IMG/VR virus record: IMGVR_UViG_3300037483_000443
Location: 71,655 to 135,654 of that record
Reading direction: 5' to 3' (one strand)
Source of the DNA: a virus
DNA length: 64,000 nucleotides
Shown here: positions 10,038-46,732 of the stretch, in pieces
How positions within the stretch are numbered: position 1 is the stretch's first letter
How the letters are laid out: every line of letters begins with the position of its first letter
The notes under the pieces: generated by a model
Told to the model about the DNA's origin: nothing
The model's input: the letters and a program-made list of their open reading frames with translations, nothing else
Databases searched by the model: none
Translations under genes and position numbers: made by a program

Positions 10038-10114
10038 TGGTGCGACTGGGGAGGATCGAACTCCCGTTGACGCGGATTTAGAGTCCGCCGCTAAAACCAC
10101 TCAGCTACAATCGC
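10038..10114 (-). tRNA. tRNA-Sup(CUA), amber suppressor
   Basis: acceptor GCGATTG/CAGTCGC-A-CCA, anticodon arm GCGGA-CTCTAAA-TCCGC, T arm GGGAG-TTCGATC-CTCCC; own promoter at 10131-10159. Confidence 0.9.
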
Positions 10115-20395: not shown

Positions 20396-21031
20396 TTAAC
20401 CGATTTTTTCACCGGTGACATGGTTTGTTACAATGTCATCTTGGCTACGATATGTTTTAATCTTATCACCACGCATCCCAGCTCCTCGAAGATCTCTCTT
20501 TTCATCGTTCTTTCGTTTCTGCTCTTGATTAGAAAAATAACTTCTAACTTTTGCTTCAAGAAGAGATCTAGCATTTTTCTTGTTGGTATGTTGACAACGC
20601 TCTCTAGCAATTGCTTCTATTCCAGTAGGAATGTGCCGCATGACAACACATGAGTCTGTTGTATTAACATGTTGTCCACCCGGACCGCTAGATTTCTTGG
20701 TGAAGACCGTGATGTCACGATCGTTCAACTTCCACTCAGCTTCTTCTGGAACGATCATTGCTACTACCGTCACTGTTGAAGTGTGAACTCGTCCTTTACG
20801 TTCAGTGGGTGGGATTCGTTGCCACCGGTGACCGCCCGACTCTTGGAGCAATCCCCGGACGAGATTGTCTGGCCCATCGATCGTTAGATTGATTCAGCCG
20901 TGTTGCTCTTCAAAGTCAACTCGAGCGTTGATCCGCTCTGCAAATCGTGCGTAGATGGTAGCTTGGTCATTGACCAAGAGCTTTGCGTCTTCTCCGCCCT
21001 CACCTGGGCGGATCTCTAAACTGATCTTCAT
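20396..21031 (-). CDS. short RF1-type peptide chain release factor with in-frame UGA at codon 46 (20894-20896)
   Basis: ATG 21031 with AGGAG RBS: MKISLEIRPGEGGEDAK...EEQHG*INLTIDG...ESGGHRWQRIPPTERKGRVHTS...GPGGQHVNTTDS; both parts in one frame. Confidence 0.85.
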
Positions 21032-21083: not shown

Positions 21084-22070
21084 CTAGGAGTCTTTCTTTC
21101 CAACAAGGTGTCCTGTTCCATTGCAACAAGAACATTCTGAGATTGGTTGATTTAGATGAAACATTAGCTCGTTAAGATAAAGCCTTACATTCTCGATCAA
21201 GTCTTCAAGAGAATTACCCTTGAAACCTTCGATCGGAGTGTAGCCTTTGTACTTGTTGATGTTGTCTGTCATCTCGAAAATCTCAACTAATTTCGTGGTG
21301 ACAGTACGATTAGTGATGCGAGGGCGAGCGTATGATTTCCCATTTGGCTTCTTCTCTTCGTAAGTGTTCACGATCGGTTTGATCTGAATCTTTTTCTTGA
21401 CAGTAAAGCAGAAGTCATAGTCACTCGTAACTTCAGCATACATGCGATCAAGGTTCTCCTTGACATATTGACGCACAATCTTGTATGATTGTGCTGAAGT
21501 GATGTAACATGGACGCTTGTGCAAGAGCAAGTCGGGGATCAACATCTTCTCAAGTTCGTACCAATTCACGACCGTGCTCAAGTCAAGTTCTTTAACCTTC
21601 TCCCATGCTCCGTCGTTCTTGATTCGAATCTTCATGTCTGATATGCTTCCAGGCAACTCGACTTCGATTTCGCCACAGTACTTGAATTCTGCAGGGTTGG
21701 TTACCCACTTGGAGGGTTCTTGATCAAATTCAGAACGATACAGTGACTGGAGCGTTGCGTGTTTTCCAGTCCATTCTCCGTCGTTATCATTGACCTCGGC
21801 TGGCCAGAGAACTGGCTGGAACCTATCTGCTAGAGATTCATCGATCAAAATGTACCGCTTGTTGATGAAACTACCGGTAGTGAACACTTCGTAAGATGAA
21901 GCTTCAGTTTCACCGGGGACAAAGTACCAAGACTGGTGAAAAGTAGGCATGATCGTCTGACCATTGATGCGGTGGCGATTTACGTCAAATACTTTCTGCC
22001 GTTCGCTTCCGTAGAACACAGAAGAAGCAACGTAGATGCCATTTGCTGACTTGTACCAATCAATTTTCAT
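21084..22070 (-). CDS. hypothetical protein with C-terminal CxxCxGxG
   Basis: 328 aa, AGGAG RBS before MKIDWY. Confidence 0.75.
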   Translation of the reverse strand: MKIDWYKSANGIYVASSVFYGSERQKVFDVNRHRINGQTIMPTFHQSWYFVPGETEASSYEVFTTGSFINKRYILIDESLADRFQPVLWPAEVNDNDGEWTGKHATLQSLYRSEFDQEPSKWVTNPAEFKYCGEIEVELPGSISDMKIRIKNDGAWEKVKELDLSTVVNWYELEKMLIPDLLLHKRPCYITSAQSYKIVRQYVKENLDRMYAEVTSDYDFCFTVKKKIQIKPIVNTYEEKKPNGKSYARPRITNRTVTTKLVEIFEMTDNINKYKGYTPIEGFKGNSLEDLIENVRLYLNELMFHLNQPISECSCCNGTGHLVGKKDS

Positions 22071-22081
22071 GTCTTCTCCTC

Positions 22082-22411
22082 TCAGAGGAACGAGATACTT
22101 GCTTTTGCCTTGAAAGTTCCAGCTTTCTGAACTTCCGGCCAATATTTAATGACGTCTTCGATCAGGTCAAGTGACGTTCTAAAGTCGGCTTCGATCGTCT
22201 GAATGCCTGCGCTGTACGCAAGAGGGTCTCCCTCTTCAGTGATGAACGTCACACTATTATCGCCAATCAAATCTTTTTCAGTGGACTTTGCGAACGTCAT
22301 CATGATACGTCCACAAAGTGTATAGGTACGAAGCACGGTGTCTCCGAACTGTCCGCTCATTCCGCGAACGTTGCAGGCCTCGATGATGTCAAACAGACCT
22401 TTGCGGTACAC
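22082..22411 (-). CDS. hypothetical protein, start uncertain
   Basis: frame stays open upstream to a TAG at ~22481-22483. Confidence 0.5.
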   Translation of the reverse strand: MYRKGLFDIIEACNVRGMSGQFGDTVLRTYTLCGRIMMTFAKSTEKDLIGDNSVTFITEEGDPLAYSAGIQTIEADFRTSLDLIEDVIKYWPEVQKAGTFKAKASISFL

Positions 22412-22489
22412 ATGTCGCAGAAACTTGTCAAATGTTTGTTGAAGTACGTACTTTTGAGCGTTGCAGTATCGTTCATTTGACTACAGTTT

Positions 22490-22730
22490 TCTGTCCTCCC
22501 CGGGTTTCAATCCGGATCAACGGTGCACCAACCCAACCGTATAAGTGAGAAGTTCCCACGATCTGTTTGGCTTGCTGCCTATATCACGGTAGTAGTAACG
22601 AACATGTGTTAGTTTCCAAAACTATGAGCTTATGCCCTTTATTACTTTTGCACTTCTTCTACACGCTTCTCACGGCAGTCCCGAACTTCCTCTACACAAC
22701 ATAAGTGTGCAGCGATAGGCCGGACGTTAA
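22490..22730 (-). ncRNA. RNase P RNA-like gene (compact, divergent 3' end)
   Basis: ATCGCTGC-P3(ACAC/GTGT)-AGAGGAAGTTCGGG; P5 CTGCC/GGCAG-CAAG; P6 GTGAGAAG/CTTCTCAC; AGTGCAAAAG; P15 GCCAA/TTGGT. Confidence 0.65.
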
Positions 22731-22732
22731 AC

Positions 22733-22807
22733 TGGTCTCTCTACCCAGACTTGAACTGGGATCTAAAACTTAGGAGGTTCTTATGCTATCCATTGCACTA
22801 TAGAGAG
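22733..22807 (-). tRNA. tRNA-Arg(CCU)
   Basis: cloverleaf, loop CTCCTAA, CCA encoded. Confidence 0.85.
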
Positions 22808-23778
22808 ATTGACCTTCTTATATCACGCTCACCTCTAGGGCTCTTTGCCCAAACTGTCATTCACAAACTTCAACTTGGAGAAAAGCAAAATCTCATCCAA
22901 ACTGGAACTGAGCTACGAGGGCTATGTTACGACTCAAGAACCTTATTACGATAGAAAGAGATCATCATGTAATCTGGGAAGGGTTTGAGAACTTCAGAAA
23001 GAAAGTTCATCTCGTCTGAACGATAACCACTCAGTTTGTGATCTTGAATACACGCCATGTAGATCTTTTCAGCATCAACACGTGCTGTTTTATCTCCTTC
23101 GGCAAAACGCCGAACTACATTCTTTTCTTCGTTCGTCAACATTTCATTACCTCCACATCTATTTAATGCGTTTGGTCCAGCGATAAACTCTCTTCTCACC
23201 ATTGTCATTCACTGTGATAGGGTATCCACAAGATTAACGAACTGGTCAATCTTCCAGAATTTAAGGACACCATTCAGGTGGACAACACTTTAACTACACC
23301 AAGCTATTTGATTGTATATAGTGAGAACTTTACTAACCGTGAAGCATTCCTGTCCAAAGTGGAAGAGTTCTATTCAAAGAACAGTTAATGGTGATCCCGC
23401 CCAATTATAATTAGGGCAACGCCGCACAAGATGGCAATTATGCTAGGAATAAAATGTCCCCACGAATGTTGGTTTGGTGTGGATGTCAAGAGGCAAAAAA
23501 GAATGGTGTTACTCACTACCAACAATATTCCAAAAATTGTATTGTTCATGTCAGATCCTTCAGGATAAACCTTAAACACCAGTTGATATGATGCACTTCA
23601 TACCAAGCACATCACCGTGCTTGTTGGTATACGTTTCACTTTGAATTCCGGCAGCGTTGCACTTTGCAGATCAGCCAGACAAACAGGCCTTGCAAGATGA
23701 ACGCAATTACGATAATCATGATCCATGAAATATAGAAAATGATGAACGCAATGATCGCAATGAACTTCAAGAAAGTTT

Positions 23779-26200: not shown

Positions 26201-26211
26201 GAGAATCCCGG

Positions 26212-26514
26212 TTAGAAATCAAAGAAATCAACGTCATAGCTGATGACCAACTCAGTTGGAACTTCATCGATGAGAATCGGGGAGTACCAATCCGGACAAT
26301 CACCAAAAGAAAATTTACGAGATGTGCTGAACACCATCCGTCCTTCTTTAGTAGCAGCTTCGATCAGGTGAGCAATGTAGCGATATTCATGCTCAAAGTC
26401 TTTTGCAAACTGTTTGACTTTGTCCAAATCTACACAGAAAGATTCACTGGAGTATTCTACTTCGTCAAATTCGTTGAAGTGCTGATGAGTTTCTACGAAG
26501 AGGATAGGAGTCAT
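26212..26514 (-). CDS. hypothetical acidic protein
   Basis: behind promoter 26545-26573. Confidence 0.6.
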   Translation of the reverse strand: MTPILFVETHQHFNEFDEVEYSSESFCVDLDKVKQFAKDFEHEYRYIAHLIEAATKEGRMVFSTSRKFSFGDCPDWYSPILIDEVPTELVISYDVDFFDF

Positions 26515-35728: not shown

Positions 35729-35775
35729 CTCATTGAGAAGAGCATGAGTTGTATGCTTATGCTCTTCTCAATGAG
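35729..35775. repeat. 17-bp inverted repeat downstream of tmRNA
   Basis: CTCATTGAGAAGAGCAT...ATGCTCTTCTCAATGAG. Confidence 0.7.
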
Positions 35776-35799
35776 GAGTGGATCATTATCACCACCCTC

Positions 35800-36095
35800 A
35801 CCTATCCGCCTATTCCGGGTCTGTACGGTTACAAAGAGTCTATTGCTAGACTAGGCGGAACTTCAGCTTAGGCTGCGAGAGCCAGAGCACCATTTGCGTC
35901 ATTAGCACTTATGGTTTTGCTACGCTTAGGGCGTTCGCCTTACCCGTTGACTTTTCATTCTATCTCACCCAATCAAATCCAGGTACACCCCCATGATGGA
36001 TCTTATTGCTCGGTGGAGGTGGCGGGAATCGAACCCGCGTCTTGAGCGCCTTACCTTAAAAGGTGTCCTTTCGGACTACAACGATATTCATACAA
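35800..36095 (-). ncRNA. ssrA: two-piece (circularly permuted) tmRNA
   Basis: T arm+CACCTCC-A-CC (36041-36012) lies upstream of 5' end GGGGGTG (35992); G3-U70; tag GCT..TAA 35906-35868 = ANDANGALALAA*; promoter 36103-36131. Confidence 0.9.
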
Positions 36096-36222
36096 CAGAA
36101 GCATTATATCACAGTCTACAATAAAGTAAACATTTGGATGATTGCGAAGGAATCAACCTAGACGCAATCATTACTACTATTTATTGGCGCCTGCTCTACC
36201 AGCTGAGCTACATCGAAGATTA

Positions 36223-46655: not shown

Positions 46656-46732
46656 GGTGATCAAGGATGGAATCGAGCCATCATCACCTATTTCTACAAA
46701 GAAACAGTGCTCTGCCATTGAGCTACATGATC
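46656..46732 (-). ncRNA. tRNA-like RNA with over-long anticodon stem and 4-nt loop
   Basis: normal D arm, CTGTTTCT-TTGT-AGAAATAG, T loop CTCGATT. Confidence 0.6.

What the first reader, a model, noticed from the sequence alone, without database searches (positions are those of the whole stretch)
22490..22730. Phage-encoded RNase P RNA-like gene with a non-canonical P4 3' strand
Directly after tRNA-Arg(CCU) the sequence follows bacterial type A RNase P RNA order: AUCGCUGC, P3, GAGGAAGUUCGGG, P5 (CUGCC/GGCAG) before CAAG, an 8-bp P6 pseudoknot, AGUGCAAAAG, P15-P16. It is only ~240 nt with a reduced specificity domain, and the expected ACAGAACCCGGCUUA end is replaced by UGAAACCCGGGGAGGAC, which would not fully pair the catalytic P4. 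Either a minimal ribozyme serving the tRNA arrays, a decoy for host RnpA, or a truncated gene.
Basis: partly seen in the sequence, partly recalled or inferred. Interest (0 to 1): 0.8.

Follow-up and report, generated by a model that had tools for sequence, protein, structure and literature searches.

The report
Broken phage RNase P RNA gene
This is the front five-sixths of a phage-carried, cut-down RNase P ribozyme gene whose last ~37 bases, including one strand of the catalytic helix, were lost in a deletion that also beheaded the next gene, so it is most likely a dead remnant rather than an odd working ribozyme.

Summary
They lie on the minus strand at window 22731-22473, directly after tRNA-Arg(CCU).

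The stretch belongs to a large family of reduced type-A RNase P RNAs in big tRNA-rich phages. A family HMM scores it 103 bits (E 5e-31), but only over positions 6-202 of 240.

The supposed replacement P4 3' strand (UGAAACCCGGGGAGGAC) is a misassignment. It is a conserved, covarying peripheral hairpin that intact relatives also have, upstream of their true P2/P4/P1 3' strands.

In the window those 3' strands are absent. Homology stops after AGUCAAAUGA (22473). From about there the DNA encodes a protein that lacks the N-terminus present in its five homologues. A single deletion therefore cut both genes.

A near-identical peat-metagenome contig continues with the intact 3' end. Two independent assemblies confirm the junction. 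No 3' piece lies elsewhere in the 135-kb record, which is only about 37% of the genome.

Verdict: a 3'-truncated, probably catalytically dead remnant. This scan has already found the family itself many times on other DNA; I found no paper on it.

The parts
22733..22807 (-). tRNA-Arg(CCU) with encoded CCA, immediately upstream of the RNase P RNA remnant
   Evidence: ARAGORN; Rfam tRNA 59.3 bits
22473..22731 (-). 3'-truncated phage RNase P RNA gene (259 nt; family HMM positions 6-202 of 240)
   Evidence: nhmmer 103.1 bits, E 4.8e-31; alignments A3 and A5
22723..22731 (-). P1 5' strand UUUAACGUC; its partner is missing
   Evidence: Coordinates. In L174 the equivalent UUUAACAUC pairs with GAUGUUAAA. 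P1 covaries in the family, 10 of 10 pairs.
22714..22719 (-). P2 5' strand CCUAUC; its partner GAUAGG is missing
   Evidence: P2 is 100% paired with 6 of 6 pairs covarying in 23 seeds.
22693..22710 (-). P3 hairpin
   Evidence: P3 is 99.2% paired in the family.
22679..22692 (-). P4 5' strand / CR-I, GAGGAAGUUCGGGA; orphaned, with no 3' partner in the record
   Evidence: Family P4 is 99.5% paired with 6 of 8 pairs covarying. No 3' strand in the 135,654-base record.
22580..22665 (-). Stub standing in for the specificity domain (about 86 nt); poorly conserved even against the closest relative
   Evidence: 17 of 36 aligned letters identical to L174, with 22 gap columns. The stub varies from about 30 to over 200 nt across the family.
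22666..22673 (-). P6 5' strand GUGAGAAG, pairing with 22545-22552
   Evidence: 8-bp perfect complement. 16 of 23 seeds have at least 6 contiguous pairs at the same place, with different sequences.
22525..22579 (-). P5 3' strand, J5/15 CAAG, P15, P16 with the P6 3' strand in its loop, and L15 GGGUUGGUGC (the tRNA-CCA-binding motif of type A; the role is recalled)
   Evidence: 83% identical over 69 nt to phage DLP_6.
22500..22515 (-). Hairpin A, CCGG-AUUGAAAC-CCGG: the segment misread as a P4 3' strand
   Evidence: A5 columns 20-23 with 32-35: 100% paired, 4 of 4 pairs with changes on both sides
22483..22494 (-). Hairpin B, ACAG-AAAA-CUGU; the site of large insertions in relatives L122/L127, L175 and L177
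   Evidence: A5 columns 41-44 with 63-66: 95.5% paired, 4 of 4 pairs covarying. Insertions seen.
22473..22482 (-). J18/2 remnant AGUCAAAUGA; the last bases homologous to the family. The deletion junction lies at 22473|22472.
   Evidence: A3 and A5 alignments. The X3 contig departs from the window exactly before 22473 (table 7).
22082..22471 (-). 5'-truncated protein-coding gene (open frame of 132 codons; the gene caller's product starts at GTG 22411). Homology to full-length relatives begins at YCNAQ, right at the junction.
21084..22070 (-). Gad1 (Gabija anti-defence 1) gene: context, not part of the RNA
   Evidence: Pfam PF25705, E 2.6e-65; PHROG 20113

Best explanation
Window 22731-22473 (minus strand) is the remnant of a phage-encoded, specificity-domain-reduced type-A RNase P RNA gene. 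A single deletion removed its last ~37 nt (P2 3' strand, P4 3' strand/CR-V, P1 3' strand), any sequence that lay between the two genes, and the first part of the next protein-coding gene.

What remains can still form P3, P5, P6, P15/P16 and two peripheral hairpins. It cannot form P1, P2 or the catalytic P4 helix, so by itself it should not cleave pre-tRNA.

The phage's 43 tRNA genes would then rely on the host's RNase P, or on a second copy in the unassembled part of the genome.

Shown: homology, the missing strands, the exact junction, the truncation of both flanking genes, and an intact near-identical relative. Inferred: loss of activity, and that one event did it.
For: 1. Family membership. 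An HMM from 23 phage homologues hits once in the 135,654-base record, at 103.1 bits, E 4.8e-31. It covers HMM positions 6-202 of 240 only.

2. The family is a genuine RNase P core.
- 95.8% of 1033 cells are paired, against 28-42% when the partners are slid.
- 34 of 46 pairs show changes on both sides.
- P2 is 100% paired and P4 99.5% paired (RNAalifold).
- Intact members match RF00010 over model positions 1-367.

3. Breakpoint. The closest full-length relative, L174, is 75/79 and 107/121 identical up to AAUGA, and 14/51 identical after it. L174 continues with UAGGAUUGGAACAGGAUCCCGGCUAUGAGAUGUUAAA.

4. A peat-metagenome contig (X3) has 3 differences over 22473-22594. It leaves the window exactly at 22473. 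Read on the RNA strand, its loose end is UAGGUUAAACAGAAUCCCGGCUAUGAGAUG.

5. The downstream frame aligns with four homologues (P0002-P0005) and L180 only from YCNAQ onward. All five extend at least 16 to about 70 or more residues further N-terminally.

6. No 3' strand lies elsewhere in the record. A regex search found none, and the best hit of the tail HMM has E 0.66.

7. With 600 nt of downstream sequence available, the window is the only row of 67 in which I find no 3' strand. The tail HMM hits 56 of 67. Of the other 10, one is cut by its contig end and nine show the strand by eye.

8. The junction spans contigs of 9167 and 9026 bases in two runs, with 0 differences.
Against: - The record is only about 37% of the genome by CheckV. 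A trans-acting 3' piece or a second intact copy cannot be excluded.
- The retained helices are all still pairable, including compensated changes in P16 relative to L174 (read). This is what a working RNA would show, though it is also expected of a recent deletion.
- X1 and X2 may be the sample(s) the record was assembled from, so they are not fully independent. Contigs also hide minority alleles.
- Loss of activity is inferred from the role of P4 (recalled knowledge) and was not measured.
Confidence: 0.85

Rival explanations
1. Split (two-piece) ribozyme. The 259-nt RNA is the large piece, and the P2/P4/P1 3' strands are supplied in trans by a short RNA encoded in the unassembled ~63% of the genome.
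For: - The record is about 37% complete.
- The same phage has a permuted, two-piece tmRNA.
- Close relatives carry tRNA-like inserts inside hairpin B or the S-stub hairpin. If these were processed like tRNAs, the RNA would be cut into two base-paired pieces.
- The remaining helices are intact.
Against: - The junction also truncates the neighbouring protein gene, which a deletion explains and a designed split does not.
- There is no 3' piece in 135 kb.
- An IMG/VR scan for the clade's 3' end found it only in L122 and L127, attached to full genes.
- In relatives with inserts both halves stay adjacent.
Confidence: 0.06
2. One reading: a working minimal ribozyme whose P4 is closed non-canonically by CCCGGGG of UGAAACCCGGGGAGGAC.
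For: UUCGGG can pair on paper with CCCGGG (duplex -8.3 kcal/mol).
Against: - That segment is the 3' arm of a hairpin conserved and covarying in relatives that also have a true P4 3' strand.
- The pairing would leave the conserved AAG of the P4 5' strand (GAGGAAG) unpaired, whereas the family pairs it with CU in 23 of 23 seeds (pairs 81/331 and 82/330).
- P1 and P2 would still be missing.
- There is no RF00010 hit at E<=10.
Confidence: 0.02
3. The remnant has been put to another use: a decoy for the host RNase P protein or for pre-tRNAs, or a structured 5' leader for the downstream truncated ORF and Gad1 transcript.
For: - No terminator-like site lies between the remnant and the downstream genes on the minus strand, so read-through into the ORF and Gad1 is plausible.
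- L15 (GGGUUGGUGC) and J5/15 are retained.
Against: - No conservation of the truncated form: one of 67 rows.
- A near-identical relative is intact, so the deletion looks recent.
- The remnant's fold is no more stable than shuffles (z -0.72).
- The P2-P4 region that the protein contacts in type A (recalled) cannot form.
Confidence: 0.05
4. Assembly artefact: a chimeric join at 22473|22472.
For: The record is a metagenome-assembled fragment.
Against: Logan contigs of two runs, from two samples, span 21900-23100 in one piece with 0 differences, at depths 13.9 and 41.2. They may, however, come from the source sample(s).
Confidence: 0.02

Closest known systems
Bacterial type A RNase P RNA (Rfam RF00010; E. 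coli M1 RNA / rnpB)
   Same: - Same order of elements and near-consensus sequence for the P4 5' strand (GAGGAAGUUCGGG), P5, J5/15 CAAG and P15/L15 (CGGGUUGGUGC-like), plus the P6 pseudoknot.
- It lies among tRNA genes.
- Intact relatives align to RF00010 from model position 1 to 367.
   Different: - The window copy gets no RF00010 hit at all.
- It lacks the P2, P4 and P1 3' strands.
- The specificity domain is reduced to a stub of about 86 nt.
- It is carried by a phage.
- Relatives score 27.8-54.7 bits, against a gathering score of 100.
Phage-borne reduced RNase P RNA family
   Same: - 103-bit HMM match.
- Shares the family's hairpins A and B, P6 and L15.
- 83% identical to DLP_6 over 69 nt.
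- Sits in a tRNA array, as most members do.
   Different: The only copy among 67 rows without the 3' terminal strands. The break coincides with a truncated neighbouring gene.
Archaeal type T RNase P RNA of Pyrobaculum, and engineered catalytic-domain-only M1 derivatives (recalled; not checked in a call)
   Same: Natural or engineered loss of most of the specificity domain, with a retained catalytic domain. This is what the intact phage family resembles.
   Different: Those RNAs keep P1, P2 and P4. The window copy does not.
Orthopoxvirus (camelpox) RNase P-like RNA (passages of PMC3001073)
   Same: A virus-encoded RNA resembling RNase P RNA that showed no pre-tRNA processing in vitro and was discussed as a possible decoy.
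   Different: That one belongs to a eukaryotic virus and has only loose structural similarity. Here the homology to type A is clear, and the defect is a defined deletion.

Membership tests
Bacterial RNase P class A (RF00010) | Covariance-model score at or above the gathering score (100 bits) | tested here: not met
   No hit on the window at gathering score, none at E<=10 on 22300-22900, and none in the whole record at E<=10. Intact relatives score 54.7, 36.4 and 27.8 bits.
Bacterial RNase P class A (RF00010) | P4 helix formed by the CR-I 5' strand and the CR-V 3' strand (ACAGAAnCCGGCU) | tested here: not met
   The 5' strand is present (22692-22679). The 3' strand is absent from the locus and from the 135-kb record.
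Bacterial RNase P class A (RF00010) | P1 and P2 helices closing the molecule | tested here: not met
   The 5' strands are present (22731-22723 and 22719-22714). The 3' strands are missing: the HMM match ends at position 202 of 240.
Bacterial RNase P class A (RF00010) | J5/15 and the P15-L15 internal loop with the GGU motif | tested here: met
   CAAG, GCCAA...GGGUUGGUGC at 22574-22525. These columns are invariant in 23 seeds. The role in CCA binding is recalled, not tested.
Bacterial RNase P class A (RF00010) | P6 pseudoknot | tested here: met
   8-bp GUGAGAAG/CUUCUCAC. 16 of 23 seeds have at least 6 bp there with differing sequences. A column-wise count gave only 42% paired, because the alignment is out of register in that loop.
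Bacterial RNase P class A (RF00010) | Specificity domain (P7-P12, CR-II/CR-III) | tested here: not met
   About 86 nt lie between P6 5' and P5 3'. RF00010 alignments of relatives skip about 140 model positions. Only some family members (L130, L156, L169) keep GGUAAGGGUGAAA-type motifs.
Bacterial RNase P class A (RF00010) | Pre-tRNA 5' leader cleavage | not testable with these tools
Phage-borne reduced RNase P RNA family (defined here by alignment A2) | Significant match to the family profile over its whole length | tested here: inconclusive
   103.1 bits, E 4.8e-31, but positions 6-202 of 240 only. It is a member by descent and incomplete in structure.
Phage-borne reduced RNase P RNA family (defined here by alignment A2) | Peripheral hairpins A and B between P15 and J18/2 (sub-group with the window, L174, L037, L164 and others) | tested here: met
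   97.7% of 86 cells paired, with 8 of 8 pairs changed on both sides.

The most novel reading that the evidence does not exclude
The remnant is the large half of a naturally split RNase P ribozyme. In a clade whose intact members already carry tRNA-like inserts in peripheral hairpins (which would cut the RNA in two if processed), this phage would supply the P2/P4/P1 3' strands from a separate short gene in the unassembled ~63% of its genome.
Probability: 0.04. Interest if true: 0.85.

Novelty: new variant of a known kind. Interest (0 to 1): 0.33.

Why it matters
On its own this locus is a broken gene, so it does not show a new kind of catalytic core.

It matters in two smaller ways.
- It corrects the reading: there is no 'non-canonical P4'.
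- It is a natural knock-out of the phage RNase P RNA. A phage with 43 tRNA genes and a tmRNA persists at contig depths of 13.9 and 41.2 in two sediment runs (X1, X2) without an intact copy in the 135 kb seen. A complete 345-kb relative, G001, has no detectable copy at all.

Both points suggest the phage ribozyme is an accessory function rather than an essential one.

The family is widespread, strongly covarying, unannotated, absent from the papers I could search, and present in the cultured phage DLP_6. It remains the interesting object, and this scan has already reported it from other genomes.

Tried and rejected
- RNAfold of motif-centred 600-nt stretches, used to find gene ends, was too noisy because the flanks pair. 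I replaced it with duplex searches for P4 and P1. These misplaced the P4 or P1 strands in 9 divergent or end-cut rows (L052, L128, L129, L133, L139, L141, L145, L155, L168), so I read those by eye.
- The column-wise P6 count gave 42% paired, an alignment-register problem. I replaced it with a per-sequence complement search, in which only 8 of 23 seeds beat 95% of their own shuffles.
- Weak tail-HMM hits were looked at and rejected: E 0.66 at window 63394-63375 (minus strand) and E 3.1 at 26202-26214 (plus strand). Neither has a P2 or P1 3' complement beside it, and the first cannot pair with the window's P4 5' strand.
- Promoter and terminator scan: 5 promoter-like sites against 3.6 expected, and no minus-strand terminator after the remnant. 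No conclusion drawn.
- MFE z-score of the remnant is -0.72.
- No RnpA (PF00825) in the record. This is uninformative for a 37% fragment.
- Small-share runs: X3 and X13 carry relatives, not this phage. X13 is an RNA library, but that does not show transcription.
- RF00010 also misses the insert-bearing copy in L127, so its silence on G001 is weak by itself.
- Literature: the paper search (listings only) gave no paper on a phage-encoded RNase P RNA. The DLP6 paper PMC5349666 has 0 occurrences of 'RNase P' in the listing. I read passages only of PMC3001073 and PMC13254310 (irrelevant).
- Supplementary tables of jumbo-phage surveys, which could list ncRNA hits, were not seen.

Full report
**Observation**

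The feature lies on the minus strand.
- ARAGORN and Rfam place tRNA-Arg(CCU) at 22807-22733.
- The RNA that follows carries, in type-A order: a P1 5' strand (22731-22723), a P2 5' strand CCUAUC, a P3 hairpin, GAGGAAGUUCGGGA (22692-22679) and CUGCC...GGCAG.
- It continues with CAAG, GCCAA...GGGUUGGUGC, and an 8-bp complement GUGAGAAG/CUUCUCAC in the position of P6. Coordinates are; the P6 test is.
- Rfam's RF00010 nevertheless finds nothing in the window at gathering score, nothing at E<=10 on a 601-base slice, and nothing in the whole 135,654-base virus record.

**What family it belongs to**

- A sensitive blastn against phage records matched 69 nt of the 3' half (22593-22525) at 83% to an unannotated spacer in the tRNA region of Stenotrophomonas phage DLP_6. 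On that spacer RF00010 aligns end to end (model 1-367) at 54.7 bits, E 5.9e-16, with the specificity domain skipped.
- A two-block pattern taken from the shared core found 60 IMG/VR stretches, many on contigs of 100-500 kb.
- I aligned 23 compact members (A2). RNAalifold recovered P1, P3, P4, P5, P15 and P16.
- With P2 added and P4 written as a pseudoknot, 95.8% of 1033 cells pair, against 28-42% for slid partners. 34 of 46 pairs change on both sides, and 0 of 500 shuffles reach any of the five measures. P2 is 100% paired and P4 99.5% paired.
- The family is therefore a genuine, structurally constrained RNase P RNA core with a variable, mostly tiny specificity domain.
- This scan has reported the family many times from other genomes: 131 findings hold the search words.

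**The window copy is incomplete**

- A profile HMM of A2 (240 positions) hits the record once, at contig 94384-94125 = window 22730-22471. The score is 103.1 bits, E 4.8e-31, but it covers positions 6-202 only.
- Positions 203-240 are the P2 3', P4 3' and P1 3' strands.
It is followed by GGAGGAC and a second hairpin, ACAG-AAAA-CUGU.
- In 10 aligned relatives both hairpins are kept through compensatory changes: 97.7% of 86 cells paired, and 8 of 8 pairs changed on both sides. All 10 then continue with AGAUGAAUGAUAGG...ACAGAAyCCCGGCUA and a P1 3' strand.

**The break**

- A metagenome scan with a clade-specific 20-mer gave six loci.
- L174 is the closest full-length relative: 75/79 and 107/121 identical up to AAUGA, then 14/51.
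- RF00010 matches L174 over the full model at 36.4 bits, and L177 at 27.8 bits.
- Laying public contigs on 21900-23100 gave three results.
  - A 233-base peat contig (X3) has 3 differences over 22473-22594. Its loose end begins exactly before 22473. Read on the RNA strand it spells UAGGUUAAACAGAAUCCCGGCUAUGAGAUG, the intact P2/P4/P1 3' strands.
  - Contigs of 9167 and 9026 bases from two sediment runs (X1, X2; possibly the source) span the whole stretch with 0 differences. The junction is therefore not an assembly join.
  - A soil metatranscriptome contig (X13) carries a relative, which by itself does not prove transcription.

**The other side of the junction is also truncated**

- The open frame 22480-22082 has four homologues of 152-213 residues, and a fifth on a 345-kb phage genome (L180).
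- Similarity starts at YCNAQ, a few codons from the junction. All five extend at least 16 to about 70 or more residues further N-terminally.
- The frame has no in-frame ATG at the junction; the gene caller's product starts at an internal GTG.
- One deletion that removed the RNA's 3' end, the intervening DNA and the ORF's 5' end explains both truncations.
- Downstream lie Gad1 (PF25705, E 2.6e-65) and a release-factor-like gene. That gene also follows the RNase P RNA in L074, L174, L152 and L170.

**Is the 3' piece elsewhere?**

- Regex searches and the tail HMM (best E 0.66) find none in the record.
- The two best weak hits do not fit.
- An IMG/VR scan for the clade's 3' end returned only L122 and L127, attached to full genes.
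- The tail HMM hits 56 of 67 family rows (60 distinct sequences). Of the 11 rows without a hit, one is cut by its contig end and nine are divergent members in which I read the strand by eye. The eleventh is the window.
- The record is only about 37% of the genome, so a trans piece or a second copy cannot be excluded.

**Mechanistic reading**

- Shown: homology, the missing strands, the junction and the intact relative.
- Inferred from what is known of type-A RNase P (recalled: P4 carries the catalytic metal sites; P1-P2-P4 form the core): the remnant cannot fold its active site and is a dead gene. It is probably still transcribed behind tRNA-Arg, since no terminator-like site follows it.
- Its remaining helices are intact, which fits a recent event. 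One base that is C in all 23 seeds (column 212 of A2, the closing pair of P16) is U here, turning G-C into G-U.
- A complete, terminally repeated 345-kb relative (G001) has no copy detectable by pattern, RF00010 or BLAST. This suggests the gene is accessory in this phage group. RF00010's silence is weak evidence, because it also misses the insert-bearing copy in L127.

**Comparison and novelty**

- The closest kind is bacterial type-A RNase P RNA. The intact phage family is a specificity-domain-reduced variant of it.
- I found no paper describing the family (paper search; listings only).
- The only viral RNase P-like RNA I met in print is the camelpox candidate, inactive in vitro (passages of PMC3001073).
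- Supplementary tables were not seen.
- This locus adds no new catalytic design. It is a defective member, useful mainly as a natural knock-out.
- Interest is therefore modest (0.33). The bold alternative, a naturally split ribozyme, is kept at about 4%.

Noticed in passing
L127 2553-2700 (= L178), L122 (= L179), L177, L175: In the window's closest clade the RNase P RNA carries large insertions inside peripheral hairpins.
- In L122/L127 a 133-nt element sits inside hairpin B. It has a 7-bp acceptor stem, a T arm and an encoded CCACCA. Rfam tmRNA scores it 13.4 bits, E 0.003; ARAGORN calls nothing.
- L177 has a similar ACCA-ended tRNA-like element in the S-stub hairpin, plus another insert in hairpin B.
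- L175 has an insert of about 190 nt in hairpin B.
If these were processed like tRNAs, the ribozyme would be cut into base-paired pieces.
   Followed up: partly
window 21084-22070 (-): A Gad1 (Gabija anti-defence 1) gene (PF25705, E 2.6e-65; PHROG 20113) lies between the truncated ORF and the release-factor-like gene. No tblastn match to it lies between these genes in the related 345-kb phage (L180), nor in the other family loci checked.
   Followed up: partly
window 20396-21031 (-): A release-factor-like gene (EIRPGEGGEDA... and GGQ motifs) has an in-frame TGA at 20896-20894. The two halves are in the same frame here, and also in L074 and L180, so the stop looks conserved: recoding, read-through or autoregulation.
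   Followed up: partly
window 10038-10114, 46656-46732, 35772-36135: A tRNA with anticodon CUA (a UAG suppressor type, labelled Pyl by ARAGORN), a tRNA with an odd anticodon loop (ttgt), 43 tRNA genes in all, and a permuted two-piece tmRNA (RF04321, 104.4 bits).
   Followed up: no
KU682439.2 about 105774-106022 (L001 1407-1655): The cultured Stenotrophomonas phage DLP_6 carries an unannotated 249-nt reduced RNase P RNA between a hypothetical CDS and tRNA-Arg(CCG) (RF00010 54.7 bits, full model). The DLP6 paper's listing shows no mention of RNase P.
   Followed up: partly
G001 (the record of L180; 345,069 bases, terminal repeats, CheckV 100%): A complete related phage genome shares the ORF and the release-factor-like gene but shows no RNase P RNA by pattern, RF00010 or BLAST.
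   Followed up: partly
It resembles the stem-enclosed tRNA-like inserts seen in the relatives' RNase P RNAs. I did not look at it.
   Followed up: no
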